This document shows positions 59,725 through 64,000 of a DNA stretch of 64,000 nt, piece by piece. Position numbers and translations under genes: made by a program. Location of the stretch: NCBI RefSeq assembly GCF_054482595.1, contig NZ_CM137008.1; one strand, written 5' to 3'. The notes beneath the pieces were generated by a model, which was not told where the DNA came from, made no database searches, and was given only the letters and a program-made list of their open reading frames with translations. How positions within the stretch are numbered: the stretch's first letter is position 1; the number at the start of each line of letters is the position of its first letter.

Positions 59725-60810
59725 ATGGCTAGTGTTGATGCAGACTACTGCTACTCGTTTCCGGCTATACGTGGCATTCAGGCAGGCCGCCCCTTCTACA
59801 TTGCCACATGTCCGATGCGTATCATCCCCAAAATTTTTAGCTTTGATGAAAATGATGTTCCTCCGGAGTTGCGCGCGCAACGCACCCTCAATAAATCTCG
59901 CATCCCTGAAATGGTTCGTTATCTTCTTGAAAATCCTAAAGATTATGTATTTTCTGCACTAACAGCATCCATTGCCGTTGACGTCCAGTTTGATGAGTTT
60001 CCCGGCACGAATAATCTAGGGACGTTATGTGTACCAATGGACGCGCAAATCTTGATCAACGACGGTCAGCATCGTCGTAAAGCGATTGAAGACGCTTTAG
60101 ACGCTCGCCCGGAGCTGGGGCAGGATAACATACCTGTGCTGTTTTTTGTCGATGAAGGATTAAAACGCAGCCAACAGATGTTTGCCGATCTGAATAAATA
60201 TGCTATTCGCCCCAGTCCGTCGTTGGCATCGTTGTATGATCATCGGGATGCCAGTTCAAATTTGGCGCGTTATCTGGCAATGTCCGTAGAGCCGTTTGTC
60301 GGAATGACTGAGCTGGAAAAATCCAATATCAGTCAGCGGTCAAATAAATTATTTACGTTAAGCAGCATCAAGCAAGCTACCCGTGCGTTGCTGGGAAAAG
60401 ATCCGAAAAAGAGCGATTTTGAAGAATGTACCCAGATAGCAACTCGCTATTGGCAAGCTATTTATAATGTAATGCCGGACTGGCAATTAGCCGCAAAAAA
60501 GGAAGTTTCACCGGTTCAACTACGTCAGGACTATGTTCACGCTCACGGTATTGGTTTGCAGGCACTCGGACAACTAGGGTATACACTGCTGACAAATTAC
60601 CCAGAGCAGTGGCCTGATAAAATTGCTGCACTCAAAGTGTTTAACTGGCGCAGAAATAATCCGGATCTTATCAAACGTGCGATGCAGCATGGAAAGTTGA
60701 GCAAAACCAGTACGGCAATCCAACTCACCTGCAATGCGCTAAAAAACGCACTCTCAATTCCGCTTACTCCTGAAGAACAGGAGCTTGAAGCCCAAATGGT
60801 TGTCTCATGA
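59725..60810 (+). CDS. dndB: DndB (DGQHR-domain regulator of DNA phosphorothioation)
   Basis: 361 aa containing the INDGQHRRKAIE (DGQHR) motif. Confidence 0.9.
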   Translation: MASVDADYCYSFPAIRGIQAGRPFYIATCPMRIIPKIFSFDENDVPPELRAQRTLNKSRIPEMVRYLLENPKDYVFSALTASIAVDVQFDEFPGTNNLGTLCVPMDAQILINDGQHRRKAIEDALDARPELGQDNIPVLFFVDEGLKRSQQMFADLNKYAIRPSPSLASLYDHRDASSNLARYLAMSVEPFVGMTELEKSNISQRSNKLFTLSSIKQATRALLGKDPKKSDFEECTQIATRYWQAIYNVMPDWQLAAKKEVSPVQLRQDYVHAHGIGLQALGQLGYTLLTNYPEQWPDKIAALKVFNWRRNNPDLIKRAMQHGKLSKTSTAIQLTCNALKNALSIPLTPEEQELEAQMVVS

Positions 60811-62441
60811 GTAAATTAGTTCAGGCCTACGATTTGGCCGAATACACAGATTTTATTAATCAGGAGCAGTTTTCTGGACGCCCTCTGGCCGAATATATTT
60901 CTGAAGTTCAGAGAATTTATTGTGCGGATAAGCGTCCGTGGGTAATTGGCTATAGCGGTGGAAAAGATTCTTCCGCCGTGATCACGCTGGTGTATCTGGC
61001 CCTGCTTGGCCTGCCCCCGGAAATGCGCAACAAAGATGTTTTTGTAGTGTCATCCGATACGCTGGTGGAAACACCAGTGGTAGTAGATTTAATTAAGAAA
61101 ACGATGTTGCAAATTGAGGCAGGCGCAAAGCGTAATGGCCTGCCGATCACTCAACATGCGGTAACGCCTAAAACTAATGAAACCTTCTGGGTCAATTTAC
61201 TGGGGAAAGGTTATCCGGCCCCAACCCGCAGTTTTCGCTGGTGTACCGAACGCATGAAAATCAATCCGGTGAGTGACTTTATTAAAGAAAAGGTCAGCCA
61301 GTTTGATGAAGTAATTGTTGTCCTAGGTTCACGTAGTAGTGAGAGTGCCTCTCGTGCGCAGGTCATCGCAAAGCACAAAATTGATGGCTCACGCTTGGCC
61401 CGGCATACCACACTGGCAAATGCGTTTATCTATACCCCTATTGATACCTGGGATGTAGAAGACGTCTGGAAACTGCTGCGCGGCGCGTTCCGCTATGCTC
61501 CTGAATATATCGACGAATGGGAAAGCCCATGGGGTGGAAACAATCGTCCTCTATGGACGCTGTATATGGACTCTTCCGCACAGGGTGAGTGTCCCTTAGT
61601 GATAGACGAAAGTACCCCCTCTTGTGGGAACTCTCGCTTTGGATGCTGGACCTGTACCGTAGTAACCAAAGATAAAGCGATGGAAAGTCTGATCAAAAAT
61701 GGCGAAGAGTGGATGTCGCCATTGCTGAAATATCGTGATCTGCTGGCGTTTACCACCGATCCGGTGAATAAAGACACCTATCGCAACTATAAACGTCGTA
61801 CCGGTAAGGTGAGCTATCAGTACGCTAAAGACGGTGAAGATCGCAGTGCAGAGCGTAAGCATGTGCCAGGCCCCTACTGGCTCAAATATCGCCAGCAATG
61901 GTTAAAAGACTTACTGGAAATTGAGCGTGATTTAAACGCCCAGGGCCACAGGATTACGTTAATCACCGAGTCGGAACTGCACGCTATCCGCCAAGAATGG
62001 TTGAAGGATCCTAATGAACCAGACTGGTACGACACACTACCAGGTATCTACCGTGAGGTGTACCAGCGGGATCTGGATTGGGTCGTTGACGACCAATCAC
62101 GTTTTGACGCCAGCGATGCCGATTTGCTGGTGCAGATAGCTCAGGGGTTTGATGTTGTGCCAGAGATGGTGATGAAATTGATTGAGCTGGAAGTTTCAAT
62201 GGAAGGATTAAGTCGCCGTCAGGGGATTTTTGACAAACTTGGCACCATTTTAAAACAGGATTGGGGCAGTCTCGAAGAGATTCAACAACAGCAGGCAGCG
62301 CTACAAAAACGTAACGACCGGGATATTCACCAGGAAGAAATCACCAGGCTGGAAGCTGAACTTCAGGTTTTACAACGCAGAATTGTCGATGCCAGCGAAT
62401 CCTCTGTATTGGTCGGCGAGGAAAACGAACGTGCTCATTAA
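60807..62441 (+). CDS. dndC: DndC (PAPS-reductase-like ATP pyrophosphatase)
   Basis: 544 aa; P-loop-like GYSGGKDSS; start overlaps dndB stop (ATGA). Confidence 0.9.
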   Translation: MSKLVQAYDLAEYTDFINQEQFSGRPLAEYISEVQRIYCADKRPWVIGYSGGKDSSAVITLVYLALLGLPPEMRNKDVFVVSSDTLVETPVVVDLIKKTMLQIEAGAKRNGLPITQHAVTPKTNETFWVNLLGKGYPAPTRSFRWCTERMKINPVSDFIKEKVSQFDEVIVVLGSRSSESASRAQVIAKHKIDGSRLARHTTLANAFIYTPIDTWDVEDVWKLLRGAFRYAPEYIDEWESPWGGNNRPLWTLYMDSSAQGECPLVIDESTPSCGNSRFGCWTCTVVTKDKAMESLIKNGEEWMSPLLKYRDLLAFTTDPVNKDTYRNYKRRTGKVSYQYAKDGEDRSAERKHVPGPYWLKYRQQWLKDLLEIERDLNAQGHRITLITESELHAIRQEWLKDPNEPDWYDTLPGIYREVYQRDLDWVVDDQSRFDASDADLLVQIAQGFDVVPEMVMKLIELEVSMEGLSRRQGIFDKLGTILKQDWGSLEEIQQQQAALQKRNDRDIHQEEITRLEAELQVLQRRIVDASESSVLVGEENERAH

Positions 62442-64000
62442 ACAACTGGTATTACATAATTTTCGGGTATTTAACGGTACTCACACGATTGATCTGGCTC
62501 CAAGAAAGCGACCACATGAAGTAAACCCTCGTCCGATTGTGCTGTTTGGCGGTTTAAATGGTGCAGGTAAAACGTCTATTCTGTCGGCTATCCGGCTGGC
62601 ATTGTATGGGCGGCTGGCATTTGGGCTCGCGACTCAGCAACAGGATTATATTGAGCATCTTAGTTCGTTGATTCACAAAGGTGCGTACTATATTGAGCAA
62701 CCGGAAGAGGCGGCTGTTGAACTGACCTTTACCTATAATAAGGGTGGGCAGGAATCAGAGTTTACTGTTACGCGAACTTGGAAAAAGGGCAAGAAAGATC
62801 GCCTTTCTTTACAAAAGGATGGCCAACCACTCAGTGAACTGGATTATGATCAGTGCCAGGGGTTTCTTAATGAATTAATTCCTCATGGTATTGCTGATTT
62901 GTTCTTTTTTGATGGCGAAAAAATTGCGGAACTGGCAGAAGATGAATCTGGCAATATTTTGCGCACCGCTGTACGCCGTTTATTGGGCCTGGATCTGATA
63001 TCCAAACTGCGTAATGACTTAATGATTTTCGTTAAGCGCCAACAATCCAGCCAGTTAGCGGAAACTCAGCAACAGCAGATTGAAGTGCTGGAAAAACAAA
63101 GTAGAGACTTAGCTTGTCAGACAGAAGCATTGCTGGAAAAAGCTGATTTTGCCAAATCTAGAATCGAGTTTCTGTCTAAAGACATTATTCGCTATGAAGG
63201 CTTGTTGAATGCGCAGGGCGGTGCATTTGCGCAGACAAAAGCGCAGGAGAAGCAGAAAGTTGAAACACTGCTAAAAGATAAGGAGCGCCTGGAAAAAGCA
63301 CTGCGTCAGGAATGTGATGGATCATTACCTTATGCACTAGCTCCCAATATTTTATCCGAGTTGCTGGAAAAAATTGCTGATGAAACGCAGATCAAACAAG
63401 CTCAAAGCTTTGAAAAAGAGTTAAGGCTATTTTTGGCCCAGCTCAGAAACGATATTGCATTACGCTCTCGTACTACCAGTAAAATTGCAGCCGAGGCGAT
63501 TACTGATAATCTGAACGAATATATGGCAACTAAGCCGAAGGGCGATTTGTTGTTTGATATTTCTGAACGTGAAGCCGGCATGCTCCAGCAATCAATAGAG
63601 CAGGACAGTAAAAAGGCATGGCAGCGCTTCGAGCTTTACCGTATTCAGTTAGCAGAAATTGAACAGCAACTAGAGCAAGCCGCTGCCAATATTGCCCGCG
63701 CTCCGGAAGATGAGCAGTTAATGGATCTTTTTGAAAAGCTGCGCGATCTTGATAAGCAGCGTGAAAATCAGCGGCAAAAATATCTTTCATTGCTGGAAGA
63801 CGCTAAACGGGTTAAGCAACAGCAACTGGATTGTGTCCGTCAGGTGCAAAAACTGCATGATGCGGCCCGCAGTCAGCATGGCTTTAGTAGCGCCTTCAAA
63901 AATGCGCAGGAAACAATTAATTTACTCGATCGGTATAGCGACGTATTAACTCAGGCGAGAGTAAAGACGCTATCTGCTAACTTTGAAGTTGCCTATCGCA
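62431..64000 (+). CDS. dndD: DndD (SMC/ABC-like ATPase), partial; continues beyond window end
   Basis: GTG 62431 overlapping the dndC stop; (M)LIKQLVLHNFRVFNGTHTIDL...IVLFGGLNGAGKTSILSAIRLALYG, coiled-coil region follows; no stop in window, hence absent from the ORF track. Confidence 0.85.
   Translation, partial: MLIKQLVLHNFRVFNGTHTIDLAPRKRPHEVNPRPIVLFGGLNGAGKTSILSAIRLALYGRLAFGLATQQQDYIEHLSSLIHKGAYYIEQPEEAAVELTFTYNKGGQESEFTVTRTWKKGKKDRLSLQKDGQPLSELDYDQCQGFLNELIPHGIADLFFFDGEKIAELAEDESGNILRTAVRRLLGLDLISKLRNDLMIFVKRQQSSQLAETQQQQIEVLEKQSRDLACQTEALLEKADFAKSRIEFLSKDIIRYEGLLNAQGGAFAQTKAQEKQKVETLLKDKERLEKALRQECDGSLPYALAPNILSELLEKIADETQIKQAQSFEKELRLFLAQLRNDIALRSRTTSKIAAEAITDNLNEYMATKPKGDLLFDISEREAGMLQQSIEQDSKKAWQRFELYRIQLAEIEQQLEQAAANIARAPEDEQLMDLFEKLRDLDKQRENQRQKYLSLLEDAKRVKQQQLDCVRQVQKLHDAARSQHGFSSAFKNAQETINLLDRYSDVLTQARVKTLSANFEVAYR

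What the first reader, a model, noticed from the sequence alone, without database searches (positions are those of the whole stretch)
59725..64000. dndBCD(E) phosphorothioation operon at the window edge, with no dndA and no restriction partner upstream
dndB, dndC and the start of dndD are intact with overlapping stop/start codons. There is no cysteine-desulfurase gene upstream (IscS presumably substitutes) and no dndFGH-like or other PT-dependent restriction genes within 5 kb upstream. Restriction genes may lie downstream beyond the window, or this may be a modification-only PT system.
Basis: partly seen in the sequence, partly recalled or inferred. Interest (0 to 1): 0.55.

Follow-up and report, generated by a model that had tools for sequence, protein, structure and literature searches.

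The report
Known E. coli Dnd phosphorothioation defence island
The flagged genes are the first part of a well-known E. coli system that puts sulfur on the DNA backbone; the window ends before its restriction genes (dptFGH), and the same proteins have already been shown to work in a published strain, so it is ordinary.

Summary
dndB (59725-60810), dndC (60807-62441) and the first 523 of 666 codons of dndD (62431 to the window end) are intact, with overlapping stop and start codons. All three score above the NCBIfam equivalog cut-offs.

The open question, whether there is a restriction partner or only modification, comes from where the window ends. The window is E. coli chromosome, in the variable region next to a tRNA-Leu gene. 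Fourteen complete E. coli genomes share the window's upstream junction. All fourteen continue at 100.0% identity through the rest of dndD, dndE, two small accessory genes and a convergent dptH-dptG-dptF operon.

The window's DndB, DndC and DndD(1-523) are identical in amino-acid sequence to those of E. coli O157:H7 NADC 6564. In that strain, iodine cleavage of genomic DNA and reduced recovery of transformants with unmodified pUC19 (an admittedly incompletely controlled assay) are published (PMC6408774). The same cluster in E. coli 55989 was drawn in 2010 (PMC2978375), and the islands were compared in 2015 (PMC4373003). The lack of dndA is normal for Enterobacteriaceae, where housekeeping IscS substitutes.

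A conserved two-site DndB operator lies 32-84 bp upstream of dndB.

Verdict: already known, low interest.

The parts
59641..59660 (+). DndB operator-like site 1: a degenerate inverted repeat, ATTACGT-N7-TGTAAT. It overlaps a sigma-70-like -10 hexamer, TAAAAT (59647-59652).
   Evidence: Read from the sequence. The block is conserved in five E. coli dnd alleles whose distal upstream DNA cannot be aligned. The promoter-like match TAGATA-17-TAAAAT lies at 59624-59652, but the number of such matches in this region is no higher than in shuffled sequence. By analogy it corresponds to one of the two DndB footprints in Salmonella (PMC4507180).
59672..59693 (+). DndB operator-like site 2: a perfect inverted repeat, GTTACGT-N8-ACGTAAC. 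It contains the only exact TACG-N10-CGTA match in the window (59674-59691), 34-51 bp upstream of the dndB ATG.
   Evidence: Pattern search: 1 match in 64 kb against 0.51 expected by chance. The weight therefore comes from its position and from conservation across diverged alleles, not from the count. TACGN10CGTA is the motif footprinted for Salmonella DndB (PMC4507180).
59725..60810 (+). dndB: a DGQHR-domain protein of 361 aa that represses the dnd operon and so limits the level of PT modification.
   Evidence: TIGR03233 462 bits against a cut-off of 328. PADLOC DndB 583 bits. Amino-acid identical to WP_000179014.1 of NADC 6564, 55989, EC11, SM107 and W5-6. DGQHR and Cys29 are present.
60807..62441 (+). 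dndC: a 544 aa PAPS-reductase-like ATP pyrophosphatase and [4Fe-4S] sulfurtransferase. Its start overlaps the dndB stop (ATGA).
   Evidence: TIGR03183 543 bits against a cut-off of 290. PADLOC DndC 839 bits. Identical to WP_000041168.1. SGGKDS and CGNSRFGCWTC are present.
62431..64000 (+). dndD: an SMC/ABC-like ATPase. Codons 1-523 of 666 are present and the rest is cut off by the window end. The GTG start lies 11 nt before the dndC stop.
   Evidence: TIGR03185 293 bits against a cut-off of 246, matching profile positions 1-511 of 650. PADLOC DndD 708 bits. There is no stop up to base 64000, and residues 2-523 match the 666 aa WP_000905896.1 exactly; codon 1, the GTG start, was left out of the comparison. 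Walker A motif GLNGAGKTS is present.

Best explanation
This is the modification half of a complete, already characterised E. coli Dnd phosphorothioate (PT) restriction-modification system. The window ends inside dndD.

**Layout.** The full cluster is dndB-dndC-dndD-dndE on one strand. It is followed by two small accessory genes: a DGQHR paralogue carrying a nonsense codon, and a 172 aa ORF that RefSeq names as AgrB family. Then comes dptF-dptG-dptH (also called dndFGH), read convergently from the other strand. The whole lies in the genomic island next to a tRNA-Leu gene.

**Mechanism**, taken from established work on the family rather than shown here:
- Housekeeping IscS, encoded elsewhere in the genome, takes sulfur from cysteine as a persulfide and passes it to DndC.
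[quoted passage not shown] DndD is an ATPase and DndE binds DNA. [quoted passage not shown]
- DndB binds two inverted repeats in its own promoter and holds expression of dndBCDE down.
- DptF, DptG and DptH form a complex that binds, translocates along and nicks or cleaves incoming DNA lacking PT, which protects against phages and plasmids.

**Shown here:** the gene identities, their integrity inside the window, the conserved operator, and the downstream content in every matching genome.

**Inferred:** that the source strain continues in the same way, and that the modification motif is GAAC/GTTC.
For: - **Family scores:**
- **Downstream content:** read directly in EC11, SM107, W5-6, NADC 6564 and 55989.
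- **Continuity:** all 14 genomes with the window-type junction cover a 20.3 kb query from the IS3 element to dptF at 100% coverage and 100.0% identity. One of them, YZLc23-1, has a 2.27 kb insertion, but comparing coordinates places it upstream of dndB.
- **No dnd-only genomes seen:** in an evenly spaced sample of 60 of the 227 E. coli genomes matching dndB..dptF, 53 hold both modules, 7 hold only dpt remnants and none holds dnd alone.
- **Identity to a tested strain:** the window's DndB, DndC and DndD(1-523) are amino-acid identical to NADC 6564. There are 2 nucleotide differences in 4276, neither changing an amino acid, and the 325 bp upstream are identical. In NADC 6564, genomic DNA is cleaved by iodine and fewer transformants are recovered with unmodified pUC19 than in EDL933; the authors note that controls for transformation efficiency were not done (PMC6408774).
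- **Dnd+ phenotype:** PFGE DNA degradation was found in strains whose dndB-E match 55989 at 98.5-100% (PMC4373003).
- **IscS substitution:** PMC6435447, PMC4373003 and PMC6408774.
- **DndB operator:**
- **DndFGH mechanism and phage protection:** PMC10470545.
Against: - Nothing past base 64000 can be read for the source strain itself. No genome in the collection matches the whole 64 kb perfectly. SM107 is the only one covering window 1-3124, at 99.6% over window 1-24000.
- In some other E. coli strains the cluster is interrupted by IS1, ISEc23 or IS3.
- This allele is not the B7A allele on which most biochemistry was done. DptG is about 85% identical to PDB 7EXX and DndE about 88% identical to 4LRV, both estimated by eye from the alignments. 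The GAAC/GTTC motif is therefore inferred, not demonstrated, for this allele.
Confidence: 0.93

Rival explanations
1. The operon is a modification-only (orphan) dndBCDE with no PT-linked restriction partner. It would act as an epigenetic or antioxidant mark rather than as a defence system.
For: No restriction genes lie in the window upstream of dndB. The literature notes that a subset of dndBCDE clusters in other bacteria lack dndFGH (PMC4507180; PMC10853773 abstract).
Against: All 14 genomes with the same upstream junction, and every close allele read, carry dptFGH 1.8 kb beyond dndE. No dnd-only genome appeared in an even sample of 60 of the 227 matching E. coli genomes.
Confidence: 0.03
2. 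The cluster is of the complete type, but in this particular strain a part beyond the window is broken by an insertion sequence or a mutation. That part could be the 3' end of dndD, dndE, or one of dptF, dptG or dptH. Modification or restriction would then be lost.
For: Other strains carry insertions in the cluster: IS1 in tcmA_3, ISEc23 in several human isolates, and IS3 splitting dptH in strain 'numer 3'. The island is IS-rich.
Against: All 14 window-type genomes are uninterrupted from dndB to dptF. Losing modification while dptFGH stays intact damages DNA and triggers the SOS response in Salmonella (PMC4198939), so such states should be selected against.
Confidence: 0.04
3. The genes belong to a different system built from related parts: Ssp (SspABCD-SspE), the archaeal-type Pbe partner system, the Dpd 7-deazaguanine system, or BREX type 4.
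For: There are weak cross-hits: SspD 44 bits and BrxP 51 bits for DndC, PbeC 579 bits for DndD, and DpdB 27 bits for DndB.
Against: In each case the Dnd model scores much higher: DndC 839, DndD 708 and DndB 583 bits. DpdB scores 26.7 bits against a cut-off of 300. The downstream genes in matching genomes are DndE, DndF, DndG and DndH by PADLOC.
Confidence: 0.005

Closest known systems
dndBCDE-dptFGH island of E. coli O157:H7 NADC 6564 (86-24 lineage, CP017251) and E. coli 55989 (NC_011748)
   Same: DndB, DndC and DndD(1-523) are amino-acid identical to NADC 6564. 55989 differs at one DndD residue. The promoter is identical, and both have the same gene order and the same accessory genes, including the nonsense codon in the DGQHR paralogue. 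NADC 6564 lacks dndA, with iscS elsewhere in the genome (PMC6408774). The 55989 island sits at the leu tRNA site (PMC4373003).
   Different: Only the DNA upstream of dndB differs. In NADC 6564 and 55989 a ProQ/FinO-family gene annotated as intact lies directly upstream. In the window it is a remnant next to an autotransporter gene and about 37 kb of IS-rich mosaic.
E. coli B7A DndBCDE-DndFGH, the main biochemical and structural model (PT at GpsAAC/GpsTTC)
   Same: The same seven core genes and no dndA. IscS is used as the sulfur donor in E. coli (An et al. 2012, cited in PMC6435447 and PMC4373003). The B7A island also sits at the leu tRNA site (PMC4373003, PMC10470545).
   Different: It is a different allele. 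DptG is about 85% identical to the B7A DndG structure 7EXX, and DndE about 88% identical to 4LRV. Ho et al. report that strain A3, whose dndB-D are identical to B7A's, is 80.6-89.6% identical to 55989 at the nucleotide level across dndB-E.
Salmonella enterica serovar Cerro 87 dptBCDE-dptFGH (with ORF5/dndI)
   Same: The same architecture and the same motif class. DndB represses the operon through two TACGN10CGTA sites (PMC4507180). A variable, dispensable accessory ORF accompanies the two modules (PMC2978375).
   Different: It is more distant in sequence: 78-81% nucleotide homology was reported between NADC 6564 and a Salmonella enterica genome (CP019412.1), whose serovar was not checked (PMC6408774). 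Here only one of the two sites is an exact TACGN10CGTA, and the other is degenerate.
Streptomyces lividans dndABCDE
   Same: It has homologous DndB, DndC, DndD and DndE and the same chemistry (PMC6435447).
   Different: It has a linked dndA. My recollection, not checked here, is that it lacks a dndFGH partner and uses a different motif (GpsGCC class).

Membership tests
Dnd phosphorothioation system (DndBCDE with DndA/IscS) | DndB, the DGQHR regulator | tested here: met
   TIGR03233 462 bits against a cut-off of 328. The DGQHR motif is present.
Dnd phosphorothioation system (DndBCDE with DndA/IscS) | DndC, the PAPS-reductase-like sulfurtransferase with a P-loop and a Cys cluster | tested here: met
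   TIGR03183 543 bits against a cut-off of 290. SGGKDS and CGNSRFGCWTC are present.
Dnd phosphorothioation system (DndBCDE with DndA/IscS) | DndD, the SMC/ABC-like ATPase, at full length | tested here: inconclusive
   The first 523 of 666 codons are present and intact, and they score above the cut-off (293 against 246 bits). The C-terminal part, with the signature and Walker B motifs, lies beyond the window. It is intact in all the matching genomes that were read.
Dnd phosphorothioation system (DndBCDE with DndA/IscS) | DndE | not testable with these tools
   DndE lies outside the window. In EC11, SM107, W5-6, NADC 6564 and 55989 it starts at the last base of the dndD stop codon. PADLOC DndE scores 192 bits and the PDB hit 4LRV 205 bits.
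Dnd phosphorothioation system (DndBCDE with DndA/IscS) | A cysteine desulfurase, either a linked DndA or housekeeping IscS | not testable with these tools
   None is annotated in the records that carry the window's sequence. iscS lies elsewhere in E. coli genomes; it was reported in NADC 6564 and shown to serve PT in E. coli (PMC6408774; An et al. 2012 cited in PMC6435447).
Dnd phosphorothioation system (DndBCDE with DndA/IscS) | PT actually present in the DNA | not testable with these tools
   This needs wet-lab work. Iodine cleavage was positive in NADC 6564, which has identical DndB, DndC and DndD(1-523) and the same DndE protein accession as the matching genomes (PMC6408774).
DndFGH (DptFGH) PT-linked restriction module | dptF, dptG and dptH adjacent to dndBCDE | not testable with these tools
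   The module is not in the window. It is present and uninterrupted in all 14 genomes sharing the window's junction. PADLOC scores are DndF 785, DndG 652 and DndH 2851 bits.
Ssp system (SspABCD-SspE) | SspB, SspC and SspD proteins | tested here: not met
   SspD scores 44 bits against 839 bits for DndC. There are no SspB or SspC hits.
Dpd 7-deazaguanine DNA modification system | The DpdB equivalog | tested here: not met
   NF041060 scores 26.7 bits against a cut-off of 300.
PbeABCD restriction partner | PbeC rather than DndD, with pbeA, pbeB and pbeD neighbours | tested here: not met
   The best PbeC model scores 579 bits against 708 for DndD. The neighbouring genes in matching genomes are dndE and dptFGH.

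The most novel reading that the evidence does not exclude
The roughly 1.8 kb gap between dndE and dptH may be an exchangeable cassette site whose contents modulate or back up Dnd restriction.

Among E. coli alleles this gap holds several alternatives:
- a DGQHR paralogue (TIGR04172) with a small neighbouring ORF (the 172 aa one is named AgrB family by RefSeq);
- an ATP-dependent nuclease with a DUF262 protein;
- an AIPR-family protein;
- a restriction endonuclease.

In the window's lineage the DGQHR paralogue carries a fixed GGA-to-TGA nonsense codon. These same genomes also hold an EcoWI-family PT-dependent endonuclease gene. That combination might point to an untested layer of self-tolerance control.
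Probability: 0.1. Interest if true: 0.35.

Novelty: already known. Interest (0 to 1): 0.08.

Why it matters
It matters little beyond annotation. The region can be labelled with confidence as the modification arm of a complete, functional Dnd PT defence system.

- In practical terms, the strain's DNA is expected to degrade in standard PFGE unless thiourea is added.
- The strain is expected to restrict unmodified plasmids and phages.
- Deleting dndBCDE alone would probably be toxic.

The general lesson for the scan is that a "missing partner" at a window edge should be resolved by extending the sequence before it is scored as interesting.

Tried and rejected
- **B7A comparison.** I looked for the B7A genome (CP005998) to compare directly, but it is not in the collection. 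I used the PDB chains 7EXX, 7ES4 and 4LRV instead. PMC10470545 says the DndG and DndH-C structures come from B7A. That 4LRV is the B7A DndE is my recollection of Hu et al. 2012.
- **Solved structures.** There are no solved structures for relatives of DndB, DndC or DndD.
- **EcoWI-family gene.** I considered whether the EcoWI-family PT-dependent SBD-HNH endonuclease gene in the dnd+ genomes EC11 and SM107 was a notable self-conflict. I rejected it as special, because DNA matching this gene, mostly annotated with the same product name, is in 4871 of 5426 complete E. coli genomes. It also lies outside the window. I could not find EcoWI's accession in the paper or its supplement, so identity to the characterised enzyme is unknown.
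- **TACGN10CGTA count.** The count across the window is not significant on its own: 1 match against 0.51 expected, and 40 of 100 shuffles had at least one. The site's weight comes from its position and its conservation.
- **Promoter scan.** The number of sigma-70-like matches was no higher than in shuffled sequence.
- **A 292 aa ORF.** The ORF at 14288-15166, annotated as a restriction endonuclease, matched no NCBIfam or PADLOC family. It lies 45 kb from dnd and I did not link it to PT.
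Full report
**What is in the window**

The ORF list and translations show three co-directional genes:
- 59725-60810 encodes 361 aa.
- 60807-62441 encodes 544 aa, and its ATG overlaps the previous TGA (ATGA).
- A frame starting at GTG 62431, 11 nt before the second gene's TAA, stays open to base 64000.

Against NCBIfam these are equivalog-level matches to DndB (462 bits, cut-off 328), DndC (543 bits, cut-off 290) and DndD (293 bits, cut-off 246, matching profile positions 1-511 of 650 because the window ends). PADLOC agrees, with DndB 583, DndC 839 and DndD 708 bits. Models of related systems score far lower: SspD 44, BrxP 51, DpdB 27 and the best PbeC 579 bits.

The expected motifs can be read in the translations. 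DndB has DGQHR and Cys29. DndC has SGGKDS and the CGNSRFGCWTC cysteine cluster. DndD has the GLNGAGKTS Walker A motif.

**Where the window comes from**

A 5 kb query around the genes finds 100% identical DNA in many complete E. coli chromosomes. The last 24 kb of the window is matched at 99.9% or better over its full length by 14 genomes.

The window lies in the variable region next to a tRNA-Leu gene, flanked there by ahr, yjgR and lptFG. RefSeq annotation of the records that carry the window's sequence lists no cysteine desulfurase and no PT-linked restriction gene. Those records are EC11 for window 3124-64000, with one IS1-bounded inversion, and SM107 for window 1-3124. The 5 kb upstream of dndB holds a ProQ/FinO-like remnant, an autotransporter gene and IS3 genes.

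**What lies beyond the edge**

In EC11, SM107, W5-6, NADC 6564 and 55989 the sequence continues in the same way:
- the rest of dndD (666 aa in total);
- dndE (118 aa), starting at the last base of the dndD stop;
- two small genes on the opposite strand;
- dptH (about 1684 aa), dptG (441 aa) and dptF (549 aa), read convergently towards dndE;
- an integrase remnant, an outer-membrane protein gene, a phosphoethanolamine transferase gene, an integrase gene and tRNA-Leu (for NADC 6564 and 55989 only the first two of these lay within the stretch read).

PADLOC identifies the downstream proteins as DndE, DndF, DndG and DndH, at 192, 785, 652 and 2851 bits.

I then searched with a 20.3 kb query running from the IS3 element upstream of the autotransporter gene through to dptF. 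Exactly the 14 window-type genomes cover it fully, all at 100.0% identity. One of them, YZLc23-1, carries a 2.27 kb insertion. Comparing coordinates across searches places that insertion upstream of dndB.

In an evenly spaced sample of 60 of the 227 E. coli genomes that match dndB..dptF, 53 carry both modules, 7 carry only dpt remnants, and none carries dnd alone. The modification-only reading is therefore very unlikely. The apparent lack of a partner comes from where the window ends.

**Link to experiments**

The window's DndB, DndC and DndD(1-523) are amino-acid identical to those of E. coli O157:H7 NADC 6564 (CP017251). There are 2 nucleotide differences in 4276, neither of which changes an amino acid, and the 325 bp upstream are identical. 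55989 differs by one DndD residue.

For NADC 6564, Sharma et al. report the following (PMC6408774):
- Genomic DNA is cleaved by iodine.
- Fewer transformants are recovered with unmodified pUC19 than in EDL933. The authors state that they did not run the controls needed to rule out a difference in transformation efficiency.
- dndA is absent.
- iscS is present elsewhere in the genome.

Ho et al. found the Dnd+ PFGE degradation phenotype in strains whose dndB-E are 98.5-100% identical to 55989. They also described the dnd islands at the leu tRNA site in B7A, 55989 and others (PMC4373003). Xu et al. drew the 55989 cluster in 2010 and showed in Salmonella that dptF and dptG, by in-frame deletions, and dptH, by a plasmid lacking both ORF5 and part of dptH, are needed for restriction, whereas the accessory ORF5 is not (PMC2978375).

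**Mechanism**

This account is taken from the literature, not shown here. IscS supplies persulfide sulfur. [quoted passage not shown] DndB represses the operon (PMC6435447, PMC4507180). DndF, DndG and DndH form a 2:2:1 complex that binds, translocates along and nicks DNA lacking PT, and the B7A system gives up to five orders of magnitude of phage protection (PMC10470545). Loss of modification with the restriction genes intact causes double-strand breaks and an SOS response (PMC4198939).

For this allele the GAAC/GTTC motif is an inference. DptG is about 85% identical to the B7A DndG structure 7EXX, and DndE about 88% identical to 4LRV.

**Regulatory region**

The only exact TACGN10CGTA in the window lies at 59674-59691, inside a perfect inverted repeat, GTTACGT-N8-ACGTAAC (59672-59693). 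A degenerate copy, ATTACGT-N7-TGTAAT, lies at 59641-59660.

I aligned the upstream regions of five E. coli dnd alleles whose clusters match the reference at identities ranging from about 80% to 100%. The distal DNA cannot be aligned, but both sites and the stretch down to the ATG are conserved. This fits the two DndB footprints mapped in Salmonella (PMC4507180).

**Side observations**

- The gene between dndE and dptH is the TIGR04172 "DGQHR protein 1". It is split by a single GGA-to-TGA change at codon 102 in EC11, SM107, W5-6, NADC 6564 and 55989. It is intact in strain MEI7BO1-21, which differs by only 2 nt in that gene.
- In other E. coli alleles the same gap holds different cargo: an ATP-dependent nuclease with a DUF262 protein, an AIPR protein, or a restriction endonuclease.
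- An EcoWI-family PT-dependent endonuclease gene occurs in the same genomes but outside the window. DNA matching it is present in most E. coli genomes.

**Verdict**

The finding is real and correctly named. It is an already known and already tested system, and the question it raised is answered by sequence just past the window edge. Interest is low.

Noticed in passing
L002:14847-16007 (- strand), about 850-2000 bp beyond the window end; stop codon at L002:15702-15704: The accessory gene between dndE and dptH is TIGR04172, 'DNA phosphorothioation-associated DGQHR protein 1'. A single GGA-to-TGA nonsense change at codon 102 splits it in EC11, SM107, W5-6, NADC 6564 and 55989. It is intact in strain MEI7BO1-21 (L012), which differs by only 2 nt in that gene. 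NADC 6564 still modifies its DNA and appears to restrict, so the gene seems dispensable, like ORF5 in Salmonella.
   Followed up: partly
Between dndE and dptH in related loci: L008:6343-9149, L011:6318-9051, L009:6311-8054, L010:6319-8012: This gap carries different cargo in different E. coli dnd alleles: a DGQHR paralogue with a small ORF, an ATP-dependent nuclease with a DUF262 protein, an AIPR-family protein, or a restriction endonuclease. It looks like an exchangeable accessory-cassette site inside the Dnd cluster.
   Followed up: partly
L003:950-1822 (EC11) and L005:11964-12836 (SM107); not inside the window: The dnd+ genomes EC11 and SM107 both carry an EcoWI-family SBD-HNH 'phosphorothioated DNA-binding restriction endonuclease' gene (NF045808, 438 bits), annotated as intact. 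The characterised EcoWI cuts GpsAAC/GpsTTC DNA (PMC7461809). Matching DNA is found in 4871 of 5426 complete E. coli genomes, so the co-occurrence is not special. How dnd+ strains tolerate the gene has not been tested.
   Followed up: partly
window 1-2781 (- strand), running off the left edge: A DrmD-like SNF2 helicase gene (PADLOC DrmD, 659 bits). In SM107 a type III-like DNA methyltransferase gene, annotated as two CDS, and a 1126 aa DEAD/DEAH 'REase_III' gene lie next to it. This would be a second defence system at the other end of the window.
   Followed up: partly
window 28539-39597: This segment is inverted relative to strain EC11. It is bounded by two oppositely oriented IS1 copies (about 28564-29261 and 38876-39573), which suggests an IS1-mediated inversion. 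It carries genes for a malic enzyme, dcuC, a fumarase/aspartase-family protein and a porin.
   Followed up: partly
window 21710-22055 and 58917-59263 (both - strand): Two partial ProQ/FinO-family gene copies, 89% identical over 194 bp, bracket about 37 kb of IS-rich mosaic. The mosaic includes ugpB, two autotransporter genes, sodC and remnants of IS3, IS66, IS91, IS110 and ISL3 elements. It is absent from W5-6. In W5-6, 55989 and NADC 6564 a single ProQ-like gene (frameshifted in W5-6) lies directly upstream of dndB.
   Followed up: partly
window 14288-15166 (+): A 292 aa ORF that RefSeq annotates as 'restriction endonuclease' (WP_000769116.1). It matches no NCBIfam or PADLOC family. It lies next to inovirus Gp2-family genes and IS256 remnants.
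   Followed up: no
Related genomes: tcmA_3, MMC-J-0050, strains 361, 204, 126, 98193, CUVET21-424 and 'numer 3': In several strains the otherwise identical cluster matches in two pieces with an IS1, ISEc23 or IS3 element annotated within its span. In 'numer 3' two DptH entries are annotated, so dptH appears to be split. This suggests natural inactivation of the cluster; the exact insertion sites were not mapped.
   Followed up: no
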